DNA of 64,000 nucleotides from Candidatus Shapirobacteria bacterium (GTDB lineage Bacteria > Patescibacteriota > Microgenomatia > UBA12405). Below, piece by piece: positions 19,006 to 50,855 of this stretch. The notes beneath the pieces are model-generated. The model did no database searches, was not told the origin of the DNA, and saw only the letters and a program-made list of their open reading frames with translations. Location: positions 140,906 through 204,905 of the forward strand of contig JBAZYN010000002.1 of NCBI GenBank assembly GCA_041659325.1. Direction: 5' to 3'. Every line of letters begins with the position of its first letter. The first letter of the stretch is position 1. The translations under genes and the position numbers were made by a program.

Positions 19006-22000
19006 ATGAATTCGTCGGGGCCAGTGGCAATAGTTTATGGAATAGAAAAATTTGGAGCGAAGTTTTTGGTAAAGGAATTGCTGCTTAAAGATATATATGT
19101 GGTAGGAGTGGGAGAATATGTGTCGGGGATAGAGGAAAATGATAATTTTAGGTGGGTGGCGGGGAGAGGGGATTATGAGGGGAAGGTGAATTATGTTTTT
19201 GATTTTGAGGGAGATAAAAATATTTTTGATTTAGTTTTGAAGAACTCGGCTAAATTAACAGAGATATGCATTAACGACCAAAAAAAAGCGGAAAGAATAA
19301 AAAACGACTTGATTGGGGCGAATATTAACTGGAGGCTAATAGATGCACGGGGGGTGTATGGCCCGGGGATGGCAGATGATGGGGGAGGGAGGACCGGAAT
19401 TAATTTTTTAGTTGAGGCGGTGTCGGGGGCGGTGAAGAATGAAAATTTGGTTTTGCCGGCTTTGGGAACAAAGTTCAGGTTGTTGAATATTGTGGATTTG
19501 ACCGAAGTGGTTTTGAGGGCAAGCTTTTTATCGGGAACCGAGAAGGAGGAATATGTGATATTTGGCAATGAGAGTGACTCGGGGGAAGTAGCAAAGGTGT
19601 TGATTGATGAGGCAAAGATGACTAAGTTTAAGGTGGTCCAGAAGGATTATAAGTTTGAGACTCCAGGTAAGTATGAGATAGAAGAGAACTGGAGAAAATT
19701 ACGATGGCATCCCGGGGTGGAATTTAGAGAGGGAGTGGTGGAAACTTTGCAGTATTTTTTTTCGGTAATTGATGAAGAAAGCAGGAAAAAAATGAAAGAG
19801 GGGTCGAAAGCCAATAAGTCCAAAAGTCTGAAAGTCCAAAAGTCTGAAAGTCAGAAAATAAAAAAGGAGAAGAATTTATCGAGGTTTGAGGTGATGGTGG
19901 AGGAGGAAAAAACCAATTACGAATTACCAATTACCCACCCCGGCGGGCAGGCGAATTACGAATTAGAAAAAGATAAAAAAGAGACGGTAAGAAAGAATGA
20001 GGTGAGTAGGGAGGCAGAAGAAAGGAAAGCAGAAAAATACAAAAAGGAAATAGAGGAAGAATTTAAAAGGGCAAAAGAGAAAGAAGAGGAAAAAAAGGCG
20101 AAGGAGGAGATAATTTATAGTGAAGAGATTAAATCTTTGGCAAAACAATATACCCAAACCACACCACTGGAGAGAGATGAAGTGATAGAAGAGGACGAGG
20201 AAAGGATAGAGATAAAAAACGAGCTAAAAGACGGGCCTGCCCGCCTCGGTGGGTTAATCGGCAGGCAGGTTGAAAGTAGTAAAACGAGAGAAAAAAAAGG
20301 CGGGACAGGAATAATAAACTTTAAAAAGATCGGATTTTTGGTGATGATTATTTTGGGGTTGGGGATGTTTTCGATTCCGGTCGGGTGGGGGATAAAGGTG
20401 GTGGCCGGGATTAAAAATATCTCTAAAATCAGGGAATATATTGAGGAAGAAAAATACGCTGAGGCTGACAAAAAAGCAGAGACGACGATTGCCGGTTTGA
20501 AAAAAATCGACAACCAGATCGATGATTGGGGGCTAAATAGGATGAAGACTTTTAGGAATTTACAGACTGGGCTAAAGGTAGAGGAGGGAGTGTTGGTGAT
20601 TGAGAAAAAGGCGATTCCGATAGCGGAAGCAATGGAAAAAGTTAGCGGGGCGATTTTTGATGATAAAGAGATTTCCTGGGAAAGTGAACTTGAAGTTCTA
20701 AATAAAGGCATGGTGGAGGTTGATACTGAGATTGGGTTGCTGCAGGCTAGGCTTAATGGTGACTGGAACTGGTTGCCAGCCCGATTCCGACCGGAAGTGC
20801 AGAAGGGGATTAAAAGCTTAAACATGGCCAGATCGGTAATAGGAACTTCAAGGAAGGGACTGAATATCTTGAAAGAGTTTTTGGGAAGTGACGGAAAAAG
20901 GAGAGAATACCTGGTACTGTTTCAAAACGAAAATGAGCTTCGGGCAGGCGGAGGGTTTATCGGGTCGTGGGGGATGCTGAGTTTTGAGGGGGGAAAACTG
21001 CTTAACCTGGATATAAGGGACGTTTATGAGGCAGACGGACAGTTGAAAGGCCATGTTGAACCGCCGGCGGAAATTAAACAGTACCTGGGGGAGGCGGGGT
21101 GGTTTTTGAGAGATTCTAACTGGAAGGTGGATTTTGTGGATGCCAATAAGGATATTGAGTGGTTTTTGGAGAAGGAGACGGGAAGAAAGGTGGATGGGGT
21201 GATAGGGATTAATTTGGCGGTGGCCAAGGCGATACTGGATGTTACCGGGCCGATCTACGTGGTTGATTTTGGTGAAAAAATAGGTAAAGACAACCTATAT
21301 GAACAAGCTCAATTTTATGCAGAAAATAAGTTTTTCCCCGGCTCTAAACAGAAGGCTAGCTTTTTGGGGGGACTGGGAAGACAGTTGTTTGAAGAAATCA
21401 GGAATTTGGATTCGAAAAAGATGCTGGAGCTATATCTCCAAATATTAGAGCAGTTTGATAAAAACGAAATCCAACTGGTAATGCATGAAAAGCAGGCGGC
21501 GAAAATTGCGGCAGATTTGGGGTGGGACGGGGCGATATACCAGGGAAAGTGCCTGACTGACCGGTGTTATGCCGATTATTTGTATTTGTCAGAATCTAAC
21601 TTTGGAGTGAACAAGGCCAATTATTATATATACAGAGGGATTGAGCAGACGGTTGATATTACCCAAATGGCCATCAGCAGGGTGCTGAAAATTAACTACG
21701 AGAACACGGCGAAAAATAAAAGTTGGCCGGGTGGGGATTATAAAAATTATTTGAGGGTTTATATACCACAAGATACGAATCTGGCGGAGGTGAGTATTTC
21801 GGATTCGGCACAACCAGGAAAGAAATCGGTGGTGGGGGCAGGGGAGATGAAGATATCACAAATTTATAATAAAAAAGAAATAGGATTTTTAGTGCCGGTA
21901 CCGGTGGGGCAGAAAAGAACTGTAGAGATTAGATACGTAAGTAAAATTGATTTGGGGATAAAGGATAAATTCTCGTACCTTGGGTATATCCAGAAACAGT

Positions 22001-38312: not shown

Positions 38313-39437
38313 ATGAAAAATAAAAAAATAGCAATATTTTTTGGAGGAAAGATCACCCATCACCTGAGGCTGCTGAGGATGGCGGCGAGGAAACTCCGGG
38401 TACAGCTGGATCTGGTTTCTTATAATAGGGTTTGTTTTGAAGCGGGTAAGGGGGTATATATAAGAGGAGATAAGGCCAGGATGAACGAAACCTGGGAAGT
38501 TTCGGAATATGACGTGTTGTTTTTCAGAACGACGGGGAAACACTGGGAAGAAGTAAGTTTAATTTTGGATGCTGTGAAAGGGAAGGACATAACGGTGGTT
38601 GACCCTTTGGTAAAAAATGGGAGGCCGTCTGATGCCTGTAAGGCTTATCAAATGCTGGAGTTGGCTAAGGCAGGCATAGGGGTGCCAAAAACAATATACG
38701 GAAGTTTGTGGTATCTGTATGAGATGATGAAAAATAAGACACAGTTTTCTGATCAGCATTTTTTTTCCTCCGGTGAATGTGGTGCCACGTTCAATGTTGT
38801 AAAAAAAACACTGATGACGAAAGCTGATTTGGATCAGAAAAATTTATTGGCTTCGGACTTTGCGTTGGATTTTAATTTTCCGATAATTTTGAAGGGGAGC
38901 GGGGGGGATAGGGGGAGCCGGGTGTTTAAAATTGATAACCTGGAAGAGATGGAAAAGATGGTGCGGGCATTGAGGAAATCCGAGACGGTAGAGGGTAAGC
39001 GATATATGGTTCAAAAATTTATCCCGAACAGCGGTGATTATCGGCTGCTGATTTTGGGCGAGAAAGTGCTGGGAGTGATGAAAAGAAGCAGCCAAAGTAT
39101 TGAGGAGTTTCGTAATAATTATTCGGTGGGGGGAAAGGTGGAAGTGGCGGATTTGCCGGAGTCAATAAAAAAGATGGCAGTGAAGGCGGCAAAAGTTTGT
39201 GGATTGATGGTGGCGGGGGTGGATGTGATGGAAAAGCCAAAATCTAATAGTCTTAAAGTCTTAAAATCTGAAAGTCTGAAAGTCAAAAGTCGAAGTTTTG
39301 AGGATGGGGAAATGAGTGGGGATTCTAATGATTATGTGGTGCTGGAAGTGAATAAGGGGCCACAGTTTAGGGGATTTATGGAAGCGACGGGAATTGATGT
39401 ACCGAAAGAAATCATTAAATTTTTAATAAGTTTATAA
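38313..39437 (+). CDS. RimK-like ATP-grasp ligase (paralog 2) with an in-frame repeat insert
   Basis: IILKGSGGDRGSRVF, LLILGEKVLGVMKR and YVVLEVNKGPQF. An AGTCNNAA array is inserted at 39241-39294, giving KSNSLKVLKSESLKVKSRS. Confidence 0.65.
   Translation: MKNKKIAIFFGGKITHHLRLLRMAARKLRVQLDLVSYNRVCFEAGKGVYIRGDKARMNETWEVSEYDVLFFRTTGKHWEEVSLILDAVKGKDITVVDPLVKNGRPSDACKAYQMLELAKAGIGVPKTIYGSLWYLYEMMKNKTQFSDQHFFSSGECGATFNVVKKTLMTKADLDQKNLLASDFALDFNFPIILKGSGGDRGSRVFKIDNLEEMEKMVRALRKSETVEGKRYMVQKFIPNSGDYRLLILGEKVLGVMKRSSQSIEEFRNNYSVGGKVEVADLPESIKKMAVKAAKVCGLMVAGVDVMEKPKSNSLKVLKSESLKVKSRSFEDGEMSGDSNDYVVLEVNKGPQFRGFMEATGIDVPKEIIKFLISL
39241..39294. repeat. AGTCNNAA array (A2, in-frame in RimK-like paralog 2)
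   Basis: aatctaat agtcttaa agtcttaa aatctgaa agtctgaa agtcaaa agtcgaag. Confidence 0.85.
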
Positions 39438-41836: not shown

Positions 41837-44302
41837 GTGAACAAGAAACCAAAGGTCTTGTATTATTTGGTCCTGTTATTGGCGTTGGGAGCGGCGGTGT
41901 ATTTGGCCGGGAAGAGCCAGGAAACAAGGAGAGGAGCTTATTTTGCCGGAGCCAGGGTGAATATATTGCCGGAAATGATTACCGGAAAGGTGGGGGCGGT
42001 GGTGCCGGTTCAAGTTTGGGTGACGAGTAACCAAATTGCCGGATCTGCGGAACTGGCGAAGGTAAGCTCACTTGACGCGACCGTGTGTTATGGTGACGAA
42101 TTGGTTTTGAATGCTGATACTTTGGATGAGGATTTGCAACTGAACACTGCAGCTTTTAAGAGTGTTGCCTTTAAACAAATTCAAACGCTGCCAACTTCTG
42201 TGGACGGAACAAACAAATGTTTAAAAATGGTTTTGATAACTACCGGGATACAGCCTGCCAGTTTGAAATCAGGGACTTTTCAGGCGGCAACAGTGAGGTT
42301 TAGGGGGGCAAAAGCCGGAAGCGGAAAAGTGATAATTAATACGGTGACAATGGGAGGATATAATCCTGCTCCCGGGGCAACTGATATGAGCCTGGAGGTG
42401 TCGGAAAAGAGAGGGGCAAGTTATACAATTAGCGGGACGTCGGTGACGGGAGATGTAAATTTTTACCCAATTGATTCACAAAATAAGGCAGTAGTGGTCG
42501 GTCAGTCGGTTGAGGGATTTTTGAATTTTGCAATTGGGACGAAAAAGCTGAGCGGGGTTGATTTTAGACTAAAATACGATAAAAATTTGTTGAAGTTTGA
42601 ATCGATTACGCCAATATTAACTAGCGGGGTGGCCGGTTTGGGGGCAAACTGTAATTCGGCGCTGTTTGGGGCCGAAAGTGATTTGTTGGATAAAAGAGTA
42701 GACGAGACTAATGGAACGATTAACTTGGCCGGTGTATCTATGGAAACTGATGACACTAAGTTTGCGACAGGAAATGTGTGTTTGGCAAGATTCAAATTTA
42801 GAGCGCTAGTGAACGGAGAAGCGGTAGTTACTTTGGATACTAATTATGAGAATATGGCGGCGGGTTATTTTCCGGGACAGGCGGACCAGAGCATAGGAGT
42901 GGGAAATATTGTTCCACTTAGATTTGTTATTGGTGGGGGGAGTGTTCCAACCAATACACCGACAGTGAGGCCAACCAATACCCCATGGATACAGCAACCA
43001 ACTAATACGCCGTGGATTAGACCAACTAATACACCGATAGTGAGGCCAACTAACACGCCGTGGATTAGACCAACTAATACACCGATAGTGAGGCCAACTA
43101 ACACGCCATGGATTAGACCAACTAATACACCGATAGTGAGGCCAACTAATACCCCATGGATACAGCAACCAACAAATACTCCGTGGATACAGCAACCAAC
43201 TAATACGCCGACAGTGAGGCCAACTAATACCCCATGGATACAGCAACCAACAAATACTCCGTGGATACAGCAACCAACTAATACACCGACAGTGAGGCCA
43301 ACTAATACCCCATGGACACCTTCCCCGACTGCGCAACCGACAACTCCTGTTTGTGGCAACGATGAACTGGCAGGACAAGGGGTGAGCGAGATAGAGTATG
43401 AAGTGGGAATGACTTCGGGTCATTTTACCTTTTCTTGGGCGTTGTATGCATTACCCGATAAGGCAGAAGTGTTCTATGAAGGGACAAAATTGTTTGAAGT
43501 AGCGGATGATAACGATGATTTTAAGGAGGTTGTCCTCAATTTTGGACCTGGTACCTCAACAAAGATTAAGGTGAGGATTGCTCCTGAAGATGGGGTTACC
43601 GAATCTTTGTGGTATTACAAAATTGACTGCCCAGTAGCCGGACATGTTCAACCGACCAGTACTCCAGTCGGACCGACAAATACACCAGTTAGACCGACGG
43701 CGACTCCAGTACCAGCAACCGCCGGGTGGCCGATTCTGAAATATATGATCTCCTACAGGGATGTAATATCCGGTAATATGTGTGCGACTGATTGGCCGGT
43801 GGTAATTACGGCTGTTGCTCAGGATGGAACGACTAAGGTATATCAAGGGCAGAGGCCGGTTAGGGACACATCTATTAGTACCGCCATGGTCTATAGGGGC
43901 CAATTAACTTTGACAGATTTTCCTTATTATGAAAAAGTGGCTATTTTCTTTAAGGGGCCAAAGCATCTACAGAGTAAGTATGGAGTTAATAACCAGAATG
44001 TTTATTATGCCTATGCCGGCGGAAATATCGTAATGACTGATAATGAGTCGGCTACTCCGGTCTATGATTTCAGCGGTTATCCTTTGATGCCGGGTGATGT
44101 AACAGGTGAGACAGTGGGAGCTCCGGATGGGGTAGTGGACGGAAGAGATTATTCTTTCGTGAAGGCGGCCGCAACCAGAATCGACGAAGTAGGTGATGGT
44201 GATTACCTGCAGGCCGATATGGATGGAAACTGCAAGGTAAACGGGATGGATACTGCTTACTTTAAACAAACACTAAAAGATAAGTTGGAACAGATGTATT
44301 AG
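41837..44302 (+). CDS. membrane-anchored surface protein: cohesin-like N-terminal domain, ~15 tandem PTNTP(W/I)(I/V)(R/Q) repeats, C-terminal dockerin-like Ca-binding repeat
   Basis: GTG start. It has an N-terminal TM and then a domain paralogous to the N-terminus of the 63111 gene. 24-nt tandem repeats span 42946-43318. The C-terminus has ADMDGNCKVNGMDTAYFK (a D-x-D-G-x-x-N-x-x-D dockerin-type loop). Confidence 0.65.
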   Translation: MNKKPKVLYYLVLLLALGAAVYLAGKSQETRRGAYFAGARVNILPEMITGKVGAVVPVQVWVTSNQIAGSAELAKVSSLDATVCYGDELVLNADTLDEDLQLNTAAFKSVAFKQIQTLPTSVDGTNKCLKMVLITTGIQPASLKSGTFQAATVRFRGAKAGSGKVIINTVTMGGYNPAPGATDMSLEVSEKRGASYTISGTSVTGDVNFYPIDSQNKAVVVGQSVEGFLNFAIGTKKLSGVDFRLKYDKNLLKFESITPILTSGVAGLGANCNSALFGAESDLLDKRVDETNGTINLAGVSMETDDTKFATGNVCLARFKFRALVNGEAVVTLDTNYENMAAGYFPGQADQSIGVGNIVPLRFVIGGGSVPTNTPTVRPTNTPWIQQPTNTPWIRPTNTPIVRPTNTPWIRPTNTPIVRPTNTPWIRPTNTPIVRPTNTPWIQQPTNTPWIQQPTNTPTVRPTNTPWIQQPTNTPWIQQPTNTPTVRPTNTPWTPSPTAQPTTPVCGNDELAGQGVSEIEYEVGMTSGHFTFSWALYALPDKAEVFYEGTKLFEVADDNDDFKEVVLNFGPGTSTKIKVRIAPEDGVTESLWYYKIDCPVAGHVQPTSTPVGPTNTPVRPTATPVPATAGWPILKYMISYRDVISGNMCATDWPVVITAVAQDGTTKVYQGQRPVRDTSISTAMVYRGQLTLTDFPYYEKVAIFFKGPKHLQSKYGVNNQNVYYAYAGGNIVMTDNESATPVYDFSGYPLMPGDVTGETVGAPDGVVDGRDYSFVKAAATRIDEVGDGDYLQADMDGNCKVNGMDTAYFKQTLKDKLEQMY
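42946..43318 (+). repeat. 24-nt coding tandem repeat (~15.5 copies) with 48/72-nt higher-order structure
   Basis: Alternating ccaactaatacaccgatagtgagg (PTNTPIVR) and ccaactaacacgccgtggattaga (PTNTPWIR) units. Toward the 3' side it runs PTNTPWIQQ-PTNTPWIQQ-PTNTPTVR. Confidence 0.9.
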
Positions 44303-44337: not shown

Positions 44338-44411
44338 GGGTGATTAGCTCAGTTGGTTAGAGCACCGTCCTGATAAGACGGGGGTCAATAGTTCGAGTCT
44401 ATTATCACCCA
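44338..44411 (+). tRNA. tRNA-Ile (anticodon GAT)
   Basis: Acceptor GGGTGAT/ATCACCC, D-loop TAGCTCAGTTGGTTAGAGC, anticodon stem CCGTC/GACGG with loop cTGATaa, and T-arm GGTTCGAGTCT. Confidence 0.85.
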
Positions 44412-44764
44412 CATATGGGCGAGAGTTATTGTGAACAAGTAAAGGGTGGGGGTATGAGGCTATGTTACAATTAAGCTATGAGTAGGTTTACTGTATTGAA
44501 GGTGTTTTGTTTCTTTGCGGCGGTGGGATTGATTGCTTTTGGAAGTGTGGAAAATGTAGGGCGAACGATAAAATTTGCTTTTGAAAAGTTTAATCGGTAA
44601 GTGAAATTTGTCTTATTGACGAATTAACCGTATTTAGGTAGAATAGGAACACTTGCGGATGTTGACGAATAAGAAATATAAGTTCAAAAATTTTTGAGGA
44701 AGTAGTATTTTTGAACTCATAGGGCCGCAAGATGCGGCTCTTTTTATTTTTGGACTAAGGCCTT

Positions 44765-44838
44765 GGGCCTGTGGCTTAGTTGGTTATAGCGCTTCATTTG
44801 CAATGAAGAGGTCGGGAGTTCGACTCTCCCCAGGTCCA
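44765..44838 (+). tRNA. tRNA-Ala (anticodon TGC) with G3:U70 identity pair
   Basis: Acceptor GGGCCTG/CAGGTCC (G3·U70), anticodon stem CTTCA/TGAAG with loop tTTGCaa, and T-arm GGTTCGACTC. Confidence 0.85.
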
Positions 44839-44907
44839 CAACGTAAGAACGTACAATTTTGCAAAGCAAAACGTTACGTCCAACGTTGTTAGGATAAATC
44901 CACAACT

Positions 44908-44946
44908 AAGTCTGAAAGTTCAAAAGTCTTAAAGTCTTAAAGTTGA
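44908..44946. repeat. AGTCNNAA array (A3, spacer between tRNA-Ala and 23S)
   Basis: agtctgaa agttcaaa agtcttaa agtcttaa agttgagg. Confidence 0.8.
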
Positions 44947-45664
44947 GGAAGCAGTTAGAAATAAGGGAACAAATTTTGTTCCTTTAGACTGATTGCTGTA
45001 CATTAACAATCTGTTTGAATCAACAAGTAATAAAAAACAATTTCTTGGCAACTAAATTGAGTTGCCAAAGTTAAATAATAAATTTCGTTAAAGCAAATGG
45101 TGAATGCCTAGGTTGCTAAAGCCGAAGAAGGACGCAGAAGATAGCGAAATTCATTGGGGAGCTGTCAACAAGTAATGATCCAATGGTGTCCGAATGAGGA
45201 AACTCCCCCATTAGAAATATTGGGGTACCCAACGCAAGTTGAGGTAGGTAAGCCGGGGAACAGAAACATCCAAGTACCCGGAGGAAAATAAATCGTATGA
45301 GATTCCGTTAGTAGCGGTGAGCGAAACCGGATGAGCCTAAACTCTAGTCGCAAGACTAAGAGGGTTGCAGGGTTCGACCTTATGACAGGAAGAAACAGAA
45401 GAACGTTCTGGAATGGACGGCCGAAGACGGTGAAAGCCCCGTATTTTAAATTTCGAGTACTGTTTTAGTTGAATACCTAAGTACCGCGATCCACGTGAAA
45501 TGTCGCGGGAATCTGGGGCGACCAAGCTCCAAGGCTAAATACTTTAGCAGACCGATAGTGAACTAGTACCGCGAGGGAAAGGTGAAAAACACCCTATGTA
45601 AGGGGATGAAATAGATCTGAAACCATTTGCTAACAAACAGACAGAGCTTGTGCTTCGCACCTTG

Positions 45665-45750
45665 AGTCTAAAAGTTGCAAGTCTAAAAGTCTAAAAGTAA
45701 AAAAATACTTTAAAGACCTTGGACTTTAAGACTTTCGACTTAGAGCGCGG
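45665..45750. repeat. AGTCNNAA array plus its inverted copy forming a long hairpin inside 23S rRNA (A4)
   Basis: agtctaaa agttgcaa agtctaaa agtctaaa agtaaaaaaa, then tactttaaagaccttggactttaagactttcgactt, which is the reverse complement of another 8-mer array. Confidence 0.8.
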
Positions 45751-47908
45751 GGCATGAGTAATGTCGTGCCTATTGAAGAATGAGCCTGCGAGTGTTTCTA
45801 ATTACCAAGTTTAATCCCGCTAAGCGGGAGAAGGCGAAGCGAAAGCGAGTCTGAATAAGGCGATTAGGTAATTGGAGATGACCCGAAACCACTTGAGCTA
45901 ACCATGAGCAGGGTGAATGTCAACGAAAGTTGGCAGGAAGCCCGTACGGATCAGAGCTGCAAATCTGTCCGATGACTTGTGGTTAGGGGTAATATGTCAA
46001 TCGAAAGTGGAAATAGCTGGCTCTCTCCGAAATATATATAGGTATAGCGTCAAGTGTTTCTCTTTGGGGGTAGAGCTACTGGATGAATGTTTAAAGGAGC
46101 AATCCTTTGGCATTTAACCAAACTCCGAATACCGAAGAGTATAGCTTGGCAGTCAGTCCGACCGGGATAAGCTGGCCGGGCAAAAGGGGAAGATCCCAGA
46201 CTCACATCTAAGGTCTCTAAATTCATGTTAAGTGGGAAAGGTAGTGATTTTTCTAAGACAGTCAGGAGGTTGGCTCAGAAGCAGCCATCCTTTAAAGAAA
46301 GCGTAATAGCTCACTGATCGACCGTCCGTAGGGATGGTAGAAAAATCGCGCCTAAAATGTAACGAGGCTAAAACATGGTACCGAAGTTGGAGGATCAGGT
46401 GCGTAGCACCAGGAATTACAAAAATTAGTATAAATAAAGTCAGAAGATAATCTTTGAAAATGAATATTTATGCTGTTAGTTTGAAAGAATTAAGTGAACT
46501 ATAAGTCGACTTAGTATTTGAGTTTCATTTTGTAATTTCTAGTGTTGCGCATTTGGTCGGTAGGAGAGCGTTCTGACAGCGGTGAAGCTGTGGCGAAAGC
46601 CTATGTGGAGCGGTCAGAAGTGAGAATGCAGGCATGAGTAACGAAATGCCGGTGAGAATCCGGCACGCCGAAATATCCAAGGTTTCCTCAGCTACGTTGT
46701 TCGTCTGAGGGTTAGGCGATCCTAACACGAGGCCAGTGTAGTGCTGGCGTAGTGGATGGACTACCGGTTAATATTCCGGTCCTTCCTTGAATTCGTTTTA
46801 AGTTGGGGCGTGACGACAGTTGGAAGATTCAGAGTCCGCGTGATCGGGCTTTTAAGTGTTTAGCAAGAAGGGGTTGGAAAATCCGCCTTTTCGTTATAAA
46901 GTGAAGCACGAATAAGAGTTTTCGTGAGAAGACAATTGAATTGCATCCATATGTCCGAGAAAAGCGTCGCAAATAGAATTTAGGGAATTCGTACCCAAAC
47001 CGACACTGGTGGATAAGTCGAGAAGACTAAGGCGATTGGAAGACAGATGATTAAGGAACTTGGCAAATTAACTGGGTGTAAGCTTTGCAAGATACCCTGC
47101 CTCGAATAACATCGAGGCTACAACAAAAGAATGCATGGCGACTGTTTATCAGAAACACAGGTCTCTGCTAACCCGTAAGGGGATGTATAGGGGCTGAAAC
47201 CTGACCGGTGCCAGAAGGTTAAATGAGAGAATAGTTCCGAGCAATCGGAATAGTTTTCGATACAAGCCCTGGTGAACGTCAGCAGTAACTCTAACTGTTC
47301 TAAGGTAGCGAAGTCCTTTGTCGTGTAAGTTACGACCCGTATGAAAGGTTTAACGACTGTGCAACTGTCTTAATCATCTATCCAGTGAAATTGAAAGAGC
47401 GGTGAAGATGCCGTTTAATTACTGTAGGACAAAAAGACCCCATGAAGCTTTACTAGATCTTTACATTGATAAGAATATAATGATTGTCGAGCGTAGGAGG
47501 GAGTCCCGATCGTAAGATCGTGGACGTCAATGGAACACCTCCCTTTGTTATTTTTGAGTCTAACCTATCCCGGTGAAACCCGGGAGGGAACCGTGTATGG
47601 TTGCTAGTTTGCCTGGGGCAGGCACCTGCAAAAAAGTAACGCGGGTACACTAAGGTTGGTTTGGTCCGGCAGGAAATCGGACTGGACGTGCAAAAGCATA
47701 AACCAGCTTGACTGTGAGACTTACTAGTCGAATTCGCCGCAAGGCGAAGTTCCGAACAATTTGATTTCGGAATCAGGGTCGAAAGACGGTTTTAGTGATC
47801 CTCGTGACCCATTTGGTATGGGCACGGGCTTACTGGATAAAAGCTACTCTGGGGATAACAGGCTAGTCGCATCCGATAGTTCATATTGACGATGCGGTTC
47901 GGCACCTC

Positions 47909-48798
47909 AGCCATAAAGGCTGTCGGGGTGGGCGGAAGTAATTCCGTTAGTTTGTTAATCAATGGGTCTTTTTGGTTTTTTATAAGTTTTTTTCAAAAAA
48001 CTTAATATCTAGCTCATAACGGTGAACACCTTAATTGACATTCGGGTAACCTTCGGGTTACTCTTATATGTTCAATGGTCAATACCGTGGGAAGTCTAAC
48101 GAAAGTGCAAAAATCCATTCTTATTGGAAGTCTTTTAGGAGACGGTACAATGAGAAAGAAAATAAATGCATATCTTGAGGTAAATCATGCCTATTCACAA
48201 AAAGTATTAGTGGATTGGAAATATTGCCAATTAAAAAATTTGGTAATAACTCCGCCAAAATGGAGAAGAGGGAATGGAAAGAGAGAAGCTTACCGCTTCT
48301 TTACCCGAAGTTTACCGATTTTAACTCCGTTTTATAATAAATTTTTTATTAACGGGAAGAAAACAATTCCCGATAATTTAAAATTAAATGCTTTGAGTTT
48401 AGCTGTGTGGTTTATGGATGATGGGTCTAAAAGCCGATCATCTATTTATTTAAATACTCAACAGTTTACGGTTGATGAACAAAACCGGCTGATATTTCTT
48501 TTGGAAGATCAGTTTGGAATTAAATCGACTTTAAACAAAGATAAAATTTATTTTCGAATTCGTGTAAGAAGCGAAAGTTCAAAAAAAATGGTAAAAATTA
48601 TTGAAAAATATATTTTGCCCGAACTTAGGTATAAATTGCCAATTGTTATGACCCCGTAACGACTTGTTTTCCGATGTATATCGGGAGACAGATTCATTAT
48701 TTTATAATGGATAATACGCTAGCTCCTACTCTCAATCATATTGAGACAAGAGGATGAAGGGATAGTCTAAGACCATAAGAAATTATGGAATGACATTG
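47909..48798 (+). mobile_element. intron (probably group I) in 23S rRNA, at the GGCACCTC^GATGTCG site (E. coli ~2500 region), encoding a LAGLIDADG homing endonuclease
   Basis: Exon homology with E. coli 23S stops after GGCACCTC (47901-47908) and resumes at GATGTCGACTTGG (48799). The intervening sequence contains the 48075-48659 ORF. Boundaries are ±3 nt. Confidence 0.7.
48075..48659 (+). CDS. LAGLIDADG homing endonuclease (intron-encoded, two-motif monomeric type)
   Basis: Motif 1 SILIGSLLGDGTMRKK and motif 2 LSLAVWFMDDGSKSRS. Located inside the 23S rRNA gene. Confidence 0.85.
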   Translation: MVNTVGSLTKVQKSILIGSLLGDGTMRKKINAYLEVNHAYSQKVLVDWKYCQLKNLVITPPKWRRGNGKREAYRFFTRSLPILTPFYNKFFINGKKTIPDNLKLNALSLAVWFMDDGSKSRSSIYLNTQQFTVDEQNRLIFLLEDQFGIKSTLNKDKIYFRIRVRSESSKKMVKIIEKYILPELRYKLPIVMTP

Positions 48799-49305
48799 CG
48801 ATGTCGACTTGGCGCATCCTGGCCCTGAAGAAGGGGCCAAGGGTTGGTCTGTTCGCCCATTAAAGCGCTGCGTTAGTTGGGTTCAGAGCGTCGCGAGACA
48901 GCTCGGTCTCTATCCACAGTAATCGTTCGATTCTTGAAGGGATTCGTCTACAGTACGAGAGGACCTAGACGAGGAAACCCCTGGTGTGCCAGTTGTTCTG
49001 TCAAGAGCATCGCTGGGTAGCCACGTTTCTATAAGATAACTGCTGAAAGCATCTCAAGCAGGAAGCTGACCCTAAGATAAGGAATCGTGGTCCCGCAAGG
49101 GACGAGAAATCGCCGGGAGACTACCGGTTAATACTTTGCGTGTGTAAGGTCCGTAAGGATTTGAGCTAAGCAAAGGATAGATTGAAGAAATTTATTATTA
49201 ACTACGGTTTTTAGGTAATAGATCGATTGTTGCCTAGAAACCGGTGGCAGCTCAATTTAGAGGTCAAGAAAGAAGTTTTATATTTTGTTGATTTTAGTTT
49301 TTGGA

Positions 49306-49423
49306 TTTCGGTCACTGGAGCGAGGTGGAACCACCTTTTCCCATTTCGAACAGAGAAGTGAAACGCCTCAGCGCTGACAATAGGCTTCCCACAAGGGACT
49401 TTGAAGATAGGTCGTGGCCGAAA
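49306..49423 (+). rRNA. 5S rRNA
   Basis: CCCATTTCGAACAGAGAAGTGAAACGCCTCAGCGCTGA matches the conserved 5S loop C/helix III core. The terminal helix is TTCGGTCAC/GTGGCCGAA. Confidence 0.75.
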
Positions 49424-49495
49424 TCGAGAAACTAAAACGAAACCCTTTCCGGATAAACCGGTATTTCCCTTGAAAAGGGCAAATAAAAAGGGCAA

Positions 49496-49530: not shown

Positions 49531-49630
49531 AAGAGAATTGATTCAAATAGATTAAAAAAAGATTTATGTTAATAATTTATTTAGGGTAGACAATCCCGTT
49601 TATTCCCTGATATAGGGGATTTTTTATTAT

Positions 49631-50809
49631 ATGGCTAAAAAAAATAAAGATAGTCAGAAAGTCTCAAAGTCGAAAAGTCTCAAAGTCGAAAAGTCTCAAA
49701 GTCGAAAAGTCTCAAAGTCAAAAGTAGGTGAGGTTTTTTCCATGGCGGATTTGTTGAAACTGGAGGGGTCAATACCACTAGGGCTTAAAAAAGGTCAGGA
49801 TATTAAGGGAAAAATAACTTCGATAAAAAATAAGGCGATATTTATCGACGTAGGCGGGAAAACTGATGCGGTGGTAATGGGGAAAGAGTTTGAATTTGTG
49901 AAAGACTATGTGGCAGATTTGAAAATTGGAGATGAGATAGAAGTTCAGATTAAATCTCCGGAAAATGACAAGGGACAAATTTTGGTATCTATCAGAGGAG
50001 CCGCCTCGGGTTATGGTTGGAATTATTTTAAAGATAAAGAAAAGAGCGGTGGGGAAGTGACGGTTTTTGCGAAAGAACTAAACCGCGGAGGAACGGTGGT
50101 GGTGGCGCCATTTGGATTCTTTGGATTTATTCCGGGCTCTCAAATAGGCGGTAAATACGATGGCGATCCGGAAAAAATGCTGGGGAAGAAAGTTAAGGCG
50201 AAGGTTTTGGAAGTAGACCAGGCCAAAAATAGACTAGTTTTCTCGGAAAGATTGGTGTCTGAGCCCGGTAAGGTGGGCGAAGAAGTGAACGCGATTGAGA
50301 ATCTAAAAATCGGTGATGATTTTGAGGCCGATGTGGTACGGGTGGAGCCATTTGGAATTTTTGTTCGAATTAGTTTTATGGCCGGAGAACAGAAATTGAT
50401 CTTGGAGGGATTGGTGCATATTTCTGAAATTTCATGGGAAAAAGTGGAAAATGTGTCATCGCTGTTTAAAGCCAAAGATAAGATAAAAGTAAAATTAATT
50501 AACAAGAGTGAGGGAAGACTGCAATTTTCCTTGAAGAGAATGTCGTCTGACCCGTGGGAAAAGATTGAGGAAAAATATCCGAAAGAGAAGGAGCTTGAAG
50601 GAGTAGTGGTAAGAATTGCTAATTTCGGCGCCCTGGTAAAACTGGAAAACGGGGTGGAGGGATTGGTTCACATATCAAAACTTATCGGCGGAGTGGTTTT
50701 GAAAGAAGGCGAAAAGGTGCAGGTATATATAGAAAGCGTGGATGTGGCGAAGAGAAAAATTTCTTTGGGACTGGTGGCGATGGATAAGAAGAATGTGATT
50801 TATAAATAG
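49631..50809 (+). CDS. rpsA: 30S ribosomal protein S1-like (four S1 domains) with N-terminal repeat-derived insert
   Basis: S1 motifs FGIFVRISFMAGEQKLILEGLVHISEISW and FGALVKLENGVEGLVHISKL. The N-terminal KSKSLKVEKSQSRKVSKSKVGE is encoded by the AGTCNNAA array at 49653-49725. Confidence 0.7.
   Translation: MAKKNKDSQKVSKSKSLKVEKSQSRKVSKSKVGEVFSMADLLKLEGSIPLGLKKGQDIKGKITSIKNKAIFIDVGGKTDAVVMGKEFEFVKDYVADLKIGDEIEVQIKSPENDKGQILVSIRGAASGYGWNYFKDKEKSGGEVTVFAKELNRGGTVVVAPFGFFGFIPGSQIGGKYDGDPEKMLGKKVKAKVLEVDQAKNRLVFSERLVSEPGKVGEEVNAIENLKIGDDFEADVVRVEPFGIFVRISFMAGEQKLILEGLVHISEISWEKVENVSSLFKAKDKIKVKLINKSEGRLQFSLKRMSSDPWEKIEEKYPKEKELEGVVVRIANFGALVKLENGVEGLVHISKLIGGVVLKEGEKVQVYIESVDVAKRKISLGLVAMDKKNVIYK
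49653..49725. repeat. AGTCNNAA array (A5, in-frame at the rpsA 5' end), 16-nt super-period x3.5
   Basis: (agtctcaa agtcgaaa) x3, then agtctcaa agtcaaa. Confidence 0.9.
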
Positions 50810-50819
50810 GTAAGCTAAT

Positions 50820-50855
50820 GGTCGAAAGTCTAAAAGTCTGAAAGTAGAAAGCTTG
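50820..50855. repeat. AGTCNNAA array (A6, between the rpsA stop and its terminator)
   Basis: ggtcgaa agtctaaa agtctgaa agtagaaa gcttgaaa. Confidence 0.75.

What the first reader, a model, noticed from the sequence alone, without database searches (positions are those of the whole stretch)
44338..49423. Unlinked rRNA locus (tRNA-Ile, tRNA-Ala, 23S, 5S without 16S), with 23S interrupted by a LAGLIDADG intron and two further insertions
The large CDS 41837-44302 ends 36 nt before tRNA-Ile, so no 16S gene lies upstream. The tRNA-Ile / tRNA-Ala pair normally sits in the 16S-23S spacer, so the 16S gene appears to have been separated from the operon. The 23S gene spans ~4.1 kb. It contains an ~890-nt intron at the GGCACCTC^GATGTCG site (E. 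coli ~2500 region) encoding a two-motif LAGLIDADG endonuclease. It contains a ~190-nt AT-rich insertion at 46390-46555 relative to E. coli helix ~45. It also contains the repeat-derived hairpin at 45665-45750. A 350-nt spacer between the two tRNAs contains a GCCGCAAGATGCGGC hairpin followed by a T-run.
Basis: partly seen in the sequence, partly recalled or inferred. Interest (0 to 1): 0.6.

Follow-up and report, generated by a model that had tools for sequence, protein, structure and literature searches.

The report
Unlinked, intron-bearing CPR 23S operon
This is the 23S-5S ribosomal RNA operon of an uncultured Shapirobacteria (candidate phyla radiation) bacterium; it sits apart from the 16S gene and carries a self-splicing group I intron with a homing-endonuclease gene plus two hairpin insertions, which is real but already well documented for this bacterial group.

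Summary
The window holds tRNA-Ile (44338-44412), tRNA-Ala (44765-44839), a 4,113-nt 23S gene (45087-49199) and 5S (49307-49423). There is no 16S anywhere in the 64 kb. The 891-nt insertion (47908-48798) is a genuine group I intron, IA-like, at E. coli U2500^C2501. P1, P10, omegaG and the P2-P9 core are supported by covariation across 76 homologous introns. Its 194-aa ORF is an I-SceI-family, two-motif LAGLIDADG endonuclease looped out of P6. A strain with a 93%-identical 23S carries the same intron without the ORF (330 nt). The other two insertions lie at helix 25 and helix 45, the classical sites of RNase III-excised intervening sequences. The helix-25 insertion is absent from close relatives. 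The Ile-Ala spacer holds a conserved 40-codon gene, a conserved sigma-70-like promoter and the hairpin/T-run. The source is a Ca. Shapirobacteria MAG. Insertion-rich rRNA genes and unlinked rRNA genes are both published features of CPR bacteria, so this locus is ordinary for its lineage. Splicing, IVS excision and endonuclease activity are inferred, not shown.

The parts
44338..44412 (+). tRNA-Ile (GAU)
   Evidence: ARAGORN; Rfam tRNA 70 bits. A homologous tRNA-Ile lies 2.7 kb upstream of tRNA-Ala in relative L087 and is absent upstream of tRNA-Ala in L083.
44478..44600 (+). 40-codon small gene (hydrophobic; annotated as MFA5828516.1, hypothetical protein)
   Evidence: ORF list. Against L083/L084 it shows 12 synonymous and 6 conservative changes with frame and stop codon kept (my reading of the alignment). 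The exact sequence is in NCBI.
44616..44644 (+). sigma-70-like promoter TTGACG-17-TAGAAT; probable promoter of the tRNA-Ala-23S-5S unit
   Evidence: 10 of 12 consensus match. Both hexamers and the next 21 nt are invariant in L083/L084, while 5 spacer positions vary. Function is inferred.
44721..44751 (+). G+C-rich hairpin followed by TTTTTATTTTT, 13 nt before tRNA-Ala
   Evidence: Terminator-like scan hit with 9 pairs, 6 of them G-C. The GCCGC/GCGGC stem and the T-run are conserved in L083/L084. The fold is not better than shuffles (z -1.05). Role unresolved (leader attenuator or boxB/boxA-like element).
44765..44839 (+). tRNA-Ala (UGC)
   Evidence: ARAGORN; Rfam tRNA 69.8 bits. A tRNA-Ala upstream of 23S without 16S is also seen in the Microgenomates relatives L003 and L008-L011.
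44994..45011 (+). boxA-like element UGCUGUACAUUAACAAUC in the tRNA-Ala-23S spacer
   Evidence: One substitution against L083. Relatives carry GCUCUUUGA / GCACUUUGAAA motifs at the equivalent place. The resemblance to E. coli boxA is from memory and was not tested.
45017..45086 (+). 5' strand of the 23S processing stem
   Evidence: Inverted repeats I2, I6 and I9 pair it with 49182-49293. The co-fold of the two flanks gives -85.5 kcal/mol.
45087..47907 (+). 23S rRNA 5' exon (E. coli 1-2500)
   Evidence: Rfam LSU_rRNA_bacteria 1815 bits; alignment to E. coli 23S.
45652..45747 (+). helix-25 insertion: about 90-nt hairpin whose two arms are opposite-sense arrays of the octamer AAGTCTNA
   Evidence: Insertion at E. 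coli 548/549. Hairpin -52.1 kcal/mol, z -7.5. Absent from L083, L084 and L087. Octamer arrays are listed.
46390..46558 (+). helix-45 insertion: long stem with an A+T-rich (25% G+C) distal part
   Evidence: Insertion at E. coli 1160-1179. 31-nt arms 46393-46423 / 46528-46558. Fold -56.4 kcal/mol, z -5.7. The basal stem is conserved and the distal ~125 nt are unrelated in L083. L087 and L003 carry different inserts here.
47908..48798 (+). group I intron (IA-like) at L2500, 891 nt, ending in omegaG (G48798)
   Evidence: position; same site in 77 sequences; covariation; weak Rfam Intron_gpI hits; ORF-less 330-nt homolog.
48075..48659 (+). LAGLIDADG homing endonuclease gene (194 aa, I-SceI family) in the P6 loop
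   Evidence: PF03161, E 2.6e-42. I-SceI structures match at E 3e-15 over residues 16-191, with both motif Asp residues aligned. 1,847 homologs. NCBI MFA5828517.1.
48799..49199 (+). 23S rRNA 3' exon (E. coli 2501-2904)
   Evidence: LSU model hit of 226 bits when scanned alone; alignment to E. coli.
49200..49295 (+). 3' strand of the 23S processing stem
49307..49423 (+). 5S rRNA, flanked by its own 24-nt stem (49292-49315 / 49414-49437)
   Evidence: Rfam 5S 63.8 bits; inverted repeat I3; fold.
49602..49630 (+). terminator-like hairpin plus T-run after 5S, directly before the S1 gene

Best explanation
The locus is the single 23S-5S rRNA transcription unit of a Candidatus Shapirobacteria (CPR/Patescibacteria, Microgenomates) genome. 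It has lost linkage to the 16S gene.

Transcription most likely starts at a conserved sigma-70-like promoter (44616-44644) in the tRNA-Ile/tRNA-Ala spacer. It then runs through tRNA-Ala, 23S and 5S. The pre-23S and pre-5S are released by cleavage in long flanking processing stems.

The 23S gene is interrupted after U2500, in the peptidyl-transferase centre, by an 891-nt group I intron that must be removed. The 5' exon end CACCU pairs with the internal guide GGGUG (P1, with a U.G wobble at the splice site). The 3' exon start CGAU pairs with GUCG (P10). The intron ends in omegaG and has a P3-P9 core with P7.1/P7.2, so it should splice by the usual two guanosine-dependent transesterifications.

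The intron carries, looped out of P6, the gene for a monomeric two-motif LAGLIDADG endonuclease of the I-SceI family. This enzyme presumably cuts intron-less L2500 alleles and drives homing. The start codon lies in the 3' strand of P5. Codons 3-5 form the 3' strand of P4. The first and last codons pair with each other as P6. The stop codon sits just before P7. Translation and ribozyme folding are therefore mutually exclusive on one RNA molecule.

The two other insertions are extended hairpins at helices 25 and 45, the classical sites of intervening sequences. They are most likely cut out by RNase III without religation, which would leave a fragmented 23S rRNA.

Shown here: gene identities, positions, secondary-structure covariation, protein family, and presence/absence in relatives. 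Inferred: promoter use, splicing, endonuclease activity and IVS excision.
For: rRNA and tRNA identities. No 16S in 64 kb.

Source organism: the exact proteins belong to a Ca. Shapirobacteria MAG.

Splice site: the E. coli alignment puts the insertion at 2500. 76 of the 80 homologous loci carry a 687-938-nt insertion at exactly GGCACCT^CGATGTCG.

Intron structure: across 76 sequences, 53 modelled pairs are 94.4% canonical, and 34 pairs show two-sided compensatory changes. Controls with the 3' partner slid by 1-3 columns give 33-42%. Column shuffles reach at most 82.8%. The long-range P3 (CUAGC/GCUAG), P4 and P6 all covary across the ORF. Two hairpins lie between P7 and P3' in 53 of 64 sequences. 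The J8/7-P7 sequence GAAGGGAUAGUC is matched by Rfam Intron_gpI (E 0.015 in the window; E 1.1e-4 on the natural ORF-less homolog).

HEG gain or loss: L083/L084, from two independent assemblies with 23S exons about 93% identical, have a 330-nt intron with a 10-nt P6 loop in place of the ORF.

Endonuclease: PF03161. I-SceI alignment with both catalytic Asp motifs, LLGDG and FMDDG.

IVS: positions, strong hairpins, lineage-specific or hypervariable among close relatives. The same sites are called probable RNase III IVS in CPR by PMC11270868.

Processing stems. Promoter conservation. Unlinked arrangement in relatives.
Against: There are no RNA data, so splicing, IVS excision and transcript ends are all inferred.

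The Rfam group I model stays below its gathering score (20.5 and 25.8 bits against 50).

A conserved terminator-like hairpin with a U-run lies between the proposed promoter and tRNA-Ala. This is awkward for a strong rRNA promoter unless transcription reads through it.

No Shine-Dalgarno sequence is evident before the endonuclease ATG, which is buried in P5.

P7 is invariant, so it cannot be tested by covariation. The distal parts of P7.1, P7.2 and P8 could not be aligned.

The presence of an RNase III gene in this genome was not checked. The position of the 16S gene on the 335-kb contig is unknown.
Confidence: 0.85

Rival explanations
1. The helix-25 and helix-45 insertions are not excised. 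They stay in the mature 23S rRNA as surface expansion segments, and the rRNA is not fragmented.
For: Nothing here shows cleavage. Both sites are on the ribosome surface and tolerate extra RNA (general knowledge). The helix-45 basal stem is conserved between the window and L083, which fits either reading. Genomes with unlinked rRNA genes tend to have fewer RNase III genes (bioRxiv 10.1101/705046).
Against: Both sites are the two classical RNase III IVS sites, and PMC11270868 interprets CPR insertions there as IVS. The stems are long, near-perfect duplexes. The distal sequence is unconstrained: it is unrelated in a 93%-identical relative, and the helix-25 hairpin is absent there. This pattern is expected for RNA that is discarded.
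Confidence: 0.3
2. The hairpin plus T-run at 44721-44751 is a working intrinsic terminator. On this reading the conserved promoter at 44616 makes only a ~100-nt leader or small RNA, and the 23S operon is expressed by regulated read-through (attenuation or antitermination). The alternative to this reading is that the element is simply a passive structure.
For: The promoter hexamers, the first ~21 transcribed nt, and the hairpin with its U-run are all conserved in L083/L084, while the sequence between them varies. The scan classes the hairpin as terminator-like. There is no room for another promoter in the 13 nt before tRNA-Ala. boxA-like motifs exist downstream in the spacer.
Against: The fold of the region is not better than shuffled sequence (z -1.05; z -2.2 for the whole leader). 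The upstream hairpin 44677-44721 is not conserved in L083. No Rfam family matches the region. Only two close relatives are available for comparison.
Confidence: 0.3
3. The intron is not autocatalytic in vivo. It either needs its LAGLIDADG protein as a maturase or is a decaying element.
For: Some LAGLIDADG proteins act as maturases (for example I-AniI, cited in PMC1995217). The Rfam score is low. 27 of 77 family members end in A instead of the canonical G.
Against: The window's copy has omegaG, a U.G pair at the 5' splice site, and intact P1/P10 and core helices. Natural ORF-less copies persist in the 23S genes of close relatives (CPR genomes usually carry one 23S copy), so the RNA must splice there without the protein. 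The site is in the peptidyl-transferase centre, so failure to splice would be lethal.
Confidence: 0.1
4. The apparent unlinking of 16S is an assembly artefact (a chimeric join at the conserved tRNA or rRNA).
For: rRNA operons are frequent break or chimera points in metagenome assemblies (general knowledge).
Against: Upstream synteny (RimK-type ATP-grasp genes, then tRNA-Ile) recurs in the independently assembled L087. L083 (ENA) and L084 (JGI) also show a protein gene, the spacer and tRNA-Ala-23S with no 16S. Most CPR relatives with 2.5-5 kb of upstream sequence lack 16S motifs. The spacer has its own conserved promoter. Unlinked rRNA genes are typical of Patescibacteria.
Confidence: 0.03

Closest known systems
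Insertion sequences in CPR rRNA genes (Brown et al. 2015 as cited; Tsurumaki et al. 2024, PMC11270868)
   Same: That survey found insertions in 82% of CPR 23S genes. Group I introns cluster around the peptidyl-transferase centre and often encode LAGLIDADG_1 or LAGLIDADG_2 proteins. ORF-containing and ORF-less versions occur at the same site. Short non-intron insertions occur at the two known IVS sites. The window shows all of these features.
   Different: The paper does not give E. coli position 2500 in the text I could read. Its sites 23IS9-11 lie between positions 1952 and 2593, and the figure is not held. Equivalence of this intron to one of its numbered sites is therefore inferred. The secondary-structure model and the ORF/P4-P6 overlap given here are not in that paper's text.
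rrl_2500 group I introns of green-algal chloroplast 23S genes (PMC4877394)
   Same: Same insertion site in the large-subunit rRNA and same intron class.
   Different: The host is an organelle, not a bacterium. Sequence relatedness to the CPR family was not tested here.
Yeast mitochondrial omega intron and I-SceI
   Same: A group I intron in domain V of the large-subunit rRNA that encodes a monomeric two-motif LAGLIDADG endonuclease. I-SceI is the closest solved structure (E 3e-15).
   Different: Omega sits at L2449, not L2500 (from memory). The protein here is shorter (194 aa against 235 aa). Identity in the aligned region is low.
23S rRNA intervening sequences of Salmonella, Leptospira, Campylobacter and Coxiella (helices 25 and 45)
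   Same: Same two sites, extended stem-loops, sporadic distribution among close relatives (background).
   Different: Excision and rRNA fragmentation are not shown here. The helix-25 hairpin is built from a genome-wide octamer repeat, which I have not seen described for known IVS.
Coxiella burnetii 23S rRNA gene (IVS plus two group I introns; Raghavan et al. 2007, known here only from its title in the reference list of PMC11270868)
   Same: One bacterial 23S gene combines IVS and group I intron(s) in a reduced genome with a single rRNA copy.
   Different: The intron sites differ (L1917/L1951 against L2500). The Coxiella paper could not be read.
Unlinked rRNA genes (bioRxiv 10.1101/705046) and the rRNA cluster of Microgenomates bacterium Ch65 (PMC7143001)
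   Same: Patescibacteria form a cluster of taxa with unlinked 16S and 23S. In Ch65, trnI-GAU and trnA-UGC are separated by inserted protein genes, and the 23S has a LAGLIDADG intron.
   Different: Ch65 still has 16S in the same cluster, whereas this window has no 16S within 44 kb upstream. Here the insert between the two tRNA genes is one 40-codon gene.

Membership tests
Group I intron | 5' exon ends in U that forms a U.G wobble with the internal guide sequence (P1) | tested here: met
   Exon CACCU pairs with intron GGGUG. The U.G pair is present in 76 of 76 family members.
Group I intron | Intron ends in G (omegaG), and the 3' exon pairs with the guide sequence (P10) | tested here: met
   G48798 is the last intron base. 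GUCG pairs with CGAU, and this pairing is canonical in 69-76 of 74-76 sequences. Note that 27 of 77 relatives end in A.
Group I intron | Conserved core P3-P4-P5-P6-P7-P8 in the canonical order, with long-range P3 and P7 | tested here: met
   53 pairs are 94.4% canonical and 34 have compensatory changes. Slid controls give 33-42%. P7 (GACU/AGUC) is invariant and so is uninformative.
Group I intron | Match to Rfam RF00028 at its gathering score (50 bits) | tested here: not met
   20.5 bits (E 0.015) on the 3' part of the window's intron. 25.8 bits (E 1.1e-4) on the ORF-less homolog in L083. From memory, the model is weak for subgroup IA.
Group I intron | Guanosine-dependent self-splicing | not testable with these tools
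   Needs in vitro transcription and splicing, or RNA-seq.
Group I subgroup IA | Extra hairpins P7.1 and P7.2 between P7 and the 3' strand of P3 | tested here: met
   Two hairpins are predicted in that segment in 53 of 64 family members, median z -3.9. In the window they are a 10-11-bp and a 7-9-bp hairpin. Subgroup-specific covariance models were not available.
LAGLIDADG homing endonuclease (I-SceI-like, PF03161) | Pfam LAGLIDADG_2 above the curated cut-off | tested here: met
   145.1 bits against a cut-off of 25, covering profile positions 2-167 of 168.
LAGLIDADG homing endonuclease (I-SceI-like, PF03161) | Two LAGLIDADG motifs, each with the catalytic acidic residue, in one chain | tested here: met
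   LIGSLLGDG aligns to GLILGDA of I-SceI, and WFMDDGSK aligns to WFMDDGGK.
LAGLIDADG homing endonuclease (I-SceI-like, PF03161) | Cleaves the intron-less target site | not testable with these tools
   Needs a biochemical assay.
RNase III-excised 23S intervening sequence (IVS) | Located at helix 25 (~E. coli 540-550) or helix 45 (~1170) | tested here: met
   The insertions map to E. coli 548/549 and 1160-1179.
RNase III-excised 23S intervening sequence (IVS) | Forms an extended double-stranded stem | tested here: met
   z -7.5 and z -5.7 against shuffles.
RNase III-excised 23S intervening sequence (IVS) | Removed from the mature rRNA without religation (fragmented 23S) | not testable with these tools
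   Needs RNA end mapping. The RNase III gene was not looked for.
Unlinked rRNA genes (16S-23S distance > 1500 bp, Brewer et al.) | No 16S gene within 1.5 kb upstream of the 23S gene | tested here: met
   There is no SSU hit in the window, that is, within 45 kb upstream or 14.8 kb downstream of the 23S gene.
rrn antitermination boxA | Conserved boxA sequence in the leader or spacer that binds NusB/NusE | tested here: inconclusive
   UGCUGUACAUUAACAAUC is conserved against L083. GCUCUUUGA-type motifs occur in relatives. There was no model or binding test.

The most novel reading that the evidence does not exclude
The helix-25 intervening sequence arose recently and in situ from the genome's own octamer microsatellite (AAGTCTNA). 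Two opposite-sense arrays of that repeat form the hairpin. The same repeat forms length-variable tandem arrays in spacers and, read as K/S-rich 'KSLKV' linkers, inside protein genes. The hairpin is missing from strains whose 23S is 84-93% identical. If this is right, the locus would be a caught-in-the-act example of how rRNA intervening sequences or expansion segments originate from endogenous simple repeats rather than by horizontal transfer.
Probability: 0.35. Interest if true: 0.4.

Novelty: already known. Interest (0 to 1): 0.2.

Why it matters
It matters little beyond correct annotation. Standard rRNA finders truncate this 23S gene at the intron: Rfam reports 45077-47994 as if the gene were complete. 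The 3' exon, the small gene and the promoter are therefore easy to miss.

The locus is a clean, well-resolved example of three things. (1) A compact L2500 group I intron whose endonuclease gene is threaded through P5-P4-P6. (2) Homing-endonuclease gain or loss between near-identical strains. (3) IVS turnover at helices 25 and 45. It could serve as a test substrate for splicing and homing assays in CPR bacteria.

It does not change what is known about CPR rRNA genes.

Tried and rejected
1. Rfam at gathering threshold gives no group I hit. Only sub-threshold hits appear when small stretches are scanned. Classification therefore rests on my covariation analysis.

2. An archaeal-type bulge-helix-bulge intron or a plain IVS at position 2500 was considered. 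It was rejected because of P1/P10, omegaG, the J8/7-P7 motif and the covarying core.

3. MAFFT could not align the length-variable P7.1, P7.2 and distal P5/P8, so column counts there are meaningless. P7.1/P7.2 were tested by per-sequence folding instead.

4. The hairpin 44677-44721 upstream of the terminator-like hairpin looked like part of a small RNA. Its left arm is not conserved or compensated in L083, so it was dropped.

5. I considered reading GCGGCUCUUUUUAUUU within the hairpin and T-run as boxA. The match beyond GCUCUUU is poor. A better boxA-like candidate is at 44994-45011. This is unresolved.

6. The global alignment of all relatives' 23S genes to E. coli is noisy where several introns lie close together. 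It was used only qualitatively.

7. A text search for 'L2500' plus 'group I intron' found nothing. A looser search found rrl_2500 in chloroplasts. The Coxiella omegaG paper is not held, and the bacterial group I intron review does not mention it.

8. For relatives whose intron ends in A, I looked for shifted splice sites that would restore a terminal G. None gives the conserved exon sequence.

Full report
WHAT IS THERE

A whole-window Rfam scan at gathering threshold finds a bacterial LSU rRNA (1815 bits, from 45077), one tRNA and a 5S rRNA (49307-49423). It finds no SSU rRNA anywhere in the 64 kb. ARAGORN finds tRNA-Ile(GAU) at 44338-44412 and tRNA-Ala(UGC) at 44765-44839.

Rfam reports the LSU hit as ending at 47994. 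When the downstream stretch is scanned alone, 48799-49183 matches the 3' end of the LSU models at 226 bits.

A semi-global alignment to E. coli 23S (fetched) places the gene at 45087-49199, which is 4,113 nt. It shows three large insertions:
- 89 nt at E. coli 548/549 (helix 25);
- about 143 extra nt at E. coli 1160-1179 (helix 45);
- 891 nt at position 2500.

The upstream ORF 41837-44302 ends 35 nt before tRNA-Ile. It has only weak cohesin/dockerin matches.

SOURCE

The exact protein sequences of three ORFs are GenBank entries MFA5828515.1, MFA5828517.1 and MFA5828518.1. They come from a metagenome-assembled Candidatus Shapirobacteria genome, on a contig of 335,373 nt. NCBI already names the intron ORF 'LAGLIDADG endonuclease'.

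THE INTRON

The DNA junction is ambiguous by one base (…GGCACCT|C…G|CGATG…). Placing it after U2500 gives a 5' exon that ends in U and an intron (47908-48798) that ends in G, as group I introns require.

The intron's internal guide, GUCG-GGGUG, pairs with the 5' exon end CACCU (P1, with a U.G wobble at the splice site). It also pairs with the 3' exon start CGAU (P10).

I fetched 80 loci encoding relatives of the ORF from GTDB species representatives. Of these, 76 have an insertion of 687-938 nt at exactly GGCACCT^CGATGTCG. Most are CPR lineages (Shapiro-, Davies-, Roizman-, Levyi-, Berkel-, Peregrini-, Sacchari-, Parcubacteria groups). A few are labelled Omnitrophica, Chloroflexi, Woesearchaeota and Hadarchaeales.

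I removed the central part of the ORF, aligned 76 sequences, and projected a structure defined on the window's sequence.
- 53 pairs in P1, P10, P2, P3, P4, P5, P6, P7, P8 and P9 are canonical in 94.4% of cells.
- 34 pairs show changes on both sides.
- Sliding the 3' partners by 1-3 columns gives 33-42% canonical pairs.
- 300 column shuffles reach at most 82.8%.

The long-range P3 (CUAGC at 48018-48022 with GCUAG after the ORF) shows UA/CG/GC/AU exchanges. P7 (GACU/AGUC) is invariant.

The segment between P7 and the 3' strand of P3 folds into two hairpins in 53 of 64 members. This is the P7.1/P7.2 signature of subgroup IA.

The J8/7-P7 sequence GAUGAAGGGAUAGUC is what the Rfam group I model recognises. 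The score is low: 20.5 bits, E 0.015.

THE ORF INSIDE THE INTRON

ORF 48075-48659 (194 aa) is a full-length PF03161 LAGLIDADG_2 domain. It aligns over residues 16-191 with I-SceI structures (E 3e-15). Both motifs and their acidic residues are conserved: LLGDG and FMDDG.

The gene is threaded through the ribozyme:
- The ATG lies in the 3' strand of P5.
- Codons 3-5 (AAU ACC GUG) form the 3' strand of P4.
- The next codons (GGGAAGUCUAACGA) pair with the last codons (UUGUUAUGACCCC) as a long P6 that covaries strongly.
- The stop codon is in J6/7, immediately before P7.

The ORF is therefore an insertion in the P6 loop.

AN ORF-LESS ALLELE

Two independently assembled contigs carry an S1 protein in the same 90%-identity cluster as the window's. 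They are L083 (ENA ERZ27250602) and L084 (JGI 3300029268). Their 23S exons are about 93% identical to the window.

They carry a 330-nt intron at the same site. Its first ~120 nt are nearly identical to the window's intron. P6 closes with a 10-nt loop where the window has the ORF. Rfam's group I model matches this natural mini-intron end to end at E 1.1e-4 (25.8 bits, below the gathering score of 50).

This is the expected picture for homing-endonuclease gain or loss. It also shows that the RNA must splice without the protein.

THE OTHER TWO INSERTIONS

Both sit at the two classical IVS sites. Both fold into long stems:
- helix 25: -52.1 kcal/mol, z -7.5;
- helix 45: -56.4 kcal/mol, z -5.7, with 31-nt arms.

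The helix-25 hairpin (about 45652-45747) is absent from L083, L084 and L087. Those relatives have a short helix 25 like that of E. coli.

The helix-45 insertion keeps its basal stem in L083, but the distal ~125 nt (25% G+C) are unrelated in sequence. L087 and L003 have different, longer inserts there.

Tsurumaki et al. 2024 report many short non-intron insertions at these two sites in CPR 23S genes. They interpret them as probable RNase III-cleaved IVS. Excision is plausible here but not shown.

OPERON ARCHITECTURE

Long complementary flanks (45017-45091 with 49182-49293) form a processing stem around the 23S; the co-fold gives -85.5 kcal/mol. A 24-nt stem brackets the 5S.

The 352-nt tRNA-Ile/tRNA-Ala spacer is not empty. 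It contains four elements.
- A 40-codon ORF (44478-44600, annotated as MFA5828516.1). Against L083/L084 it shows 12 synonymous and 6 conservative differences with the stop codon retained. It is therefore under purifying selection.
- A TTGACG-17-TAGAAT promoter-like site. Its hexamers are invariant while its spacer varies.
- A conserved ~21-nt start region.
- The GCCGC…GCGGC hairpin with a T-run, 13 nt before tRNA-Ala. It is also conserved.

Relatives differ upstream of tRNA-Ala:
- L083 has no tRNA-Ile upstream.
- In L087, tRNA-Ile and tRNA-Ala are 2.7 kb apart with four protein genes between them.
- In the published Microgenomates genome Ch65, two protein genes separate them.

tRNA-Ile is therefore probably not part of the 23S unit. 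The gap between the two tRNA genes is a variable spot.

A boxA-like sequence lies at 44994-45011, and relatives have GCUCUUUGA-type motifs at that place. Whether the hairpin/T-run attenuates transcription is open.

UNLINKING

L087 shares the upstream synteny (RimK-type ATP-grasp genes, then tRNA-Ile) and the downstream synteny (S1, RadA-like ATPase, Rho), with no 16S. Most CPR relatives with 2.5-5 kb of upstream sequence lack all three universal 16S motifs. The archaeal loci and one Peregrinibacteria locus are linked. Patescibacteria are a published cluster of taxa with unlinked rRNA genes. Misassembly is very unlikely.

COMPARISON WITH WHAT IS KNOWN

Everything above matches published descriptions:
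- insertion-rich CPR rRNA genes with group I introns around the peptidyl-transferase centre, LAGLIDADG_1/_2 genes, ORF-less variants at the same sites, and IVS-type insertions (PMC11270868);
- a Microgenomates 23S gene with a LAGLIDADG intron and split trnI/trnA (PMC7143001);
- unlinked rRNA genes;
- rrl_2500 as a group I intron site in green-algal chloroplasts.

I therefore rate the locus as already known and of low interest. It is, however, a tidy example.

MOST UNUSUAL SIDE OBSERVATIONS

These are listed in full under 'noticed in passing':
- the helix-25 hairpin is built from a dispersed octamer repeat;
- the strand G/C skew is extreme across the whole window;
- a third of the intron's relatives end in A instead of G.

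Noticed in passing
window 19806-19866, 39239-39284, 44908-44943, 45665-45741, 49658-49725, 50825-50845, 53581-53612: Tandem arrays of the octamer AAGTCTNA give 19 pattern matches, all on the + strand, against 0.03 expected. They occur in spacers, as both arms of the helix-25 rRNA hairpin (one arm inverted), and inside ORFs. In ORFs they read as K/S-rich 'KSLKV' stretches, for example at the S1 N-terminus and in the ORF starting at 53475 (RadA-like by its zinc-finger N-terminus and the ATPase families of its homolog in L085/L087). The S1 array differs from relative L083 by exactly 24 nt, which is three units and keeps the reading frame. It is absent in L087.
   Followed up: partly
window 1-64000: G-over-C skew on the + strand is extreme. 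(G-C)/(G+C) is 0.19-0.45 in every 4-kb bin, and the cumulative skew rises monotonically. A comparable strand disparity is published for Microgenomates of order UBA1400 (Ch65, PMC7143001). There, however, the rRNA-bearing strand is the C-rich one, whereas here it is the G-rich one.
   Followed up: partly
loci L006, L007, L010-L012, L016, L018, L021, L027, L028, L031 and others (3' end of the L2500 intron): 27 of 77 members of this intron family end in A rather than the canonical omegaG. P1, P10 and the invariant P7 fix the 3' splice site at the same place. No shifted junction restores a G. The only precedent I know is one Coxiella 23S intron, known to me from a paper title in the reference list seen. 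The window's own intron ends in G.
   Followed up: partly
window 44478-44600: A conserved 40-codon gene (MSRFTVLKVFCFFAAVGLIAFGSVENVGRTIKFAFEKFNR, with a hydrophobic core) lies between tRNA-Ile and tRNA-Ala. It is annotated as hypothetical protein MFA5828516.1. Comparison with L083/L084 indicates purifying selection. Its function is unknown.
   Followed up: partly
window 44843-44907: A 65-nt segment directly after tRNA-Ala is absent from L083. It is flanked by the 7-nt direct repeat CCACAAC (CCACTAC in L083) and contains a short palindromic hairpin. It may be a small insertion with a target-site duplication, or a slippage product.
   Followed up: no
L079, L081, L082 (Hadarchaeales), L049 (Woesearchaeota label), L019/L034 (Omnitrophica label), L023 (Chloroflexi label): The same L2500 group I intron with an I-SceI-like endonuclease occurs outside the CPR, including in archaeal 23S genes that are linked to 16S-tRNA-Ala. 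Several 'Gammaproteobacteria' labels among the closest hits look like mislabelled bins.
   Followed up: no
relatives' 23S genes, e.g. L024, L059, L073, L077: Many relatives carry three to six large insertions in one 23S gene at the classical sites 1917, 1923, 1931, 1951, 2262, 2449, 2500, 2593/2596 and 2657. The window's gene, with one intron, is a modest case.
   Followed up: no
window 49602-49631: A terminator-like hairpin plus T-run ends one base before the annotated S1 start codon. The rRNA unit's terminator and the S1 start therefore abut.
   Followed up: no
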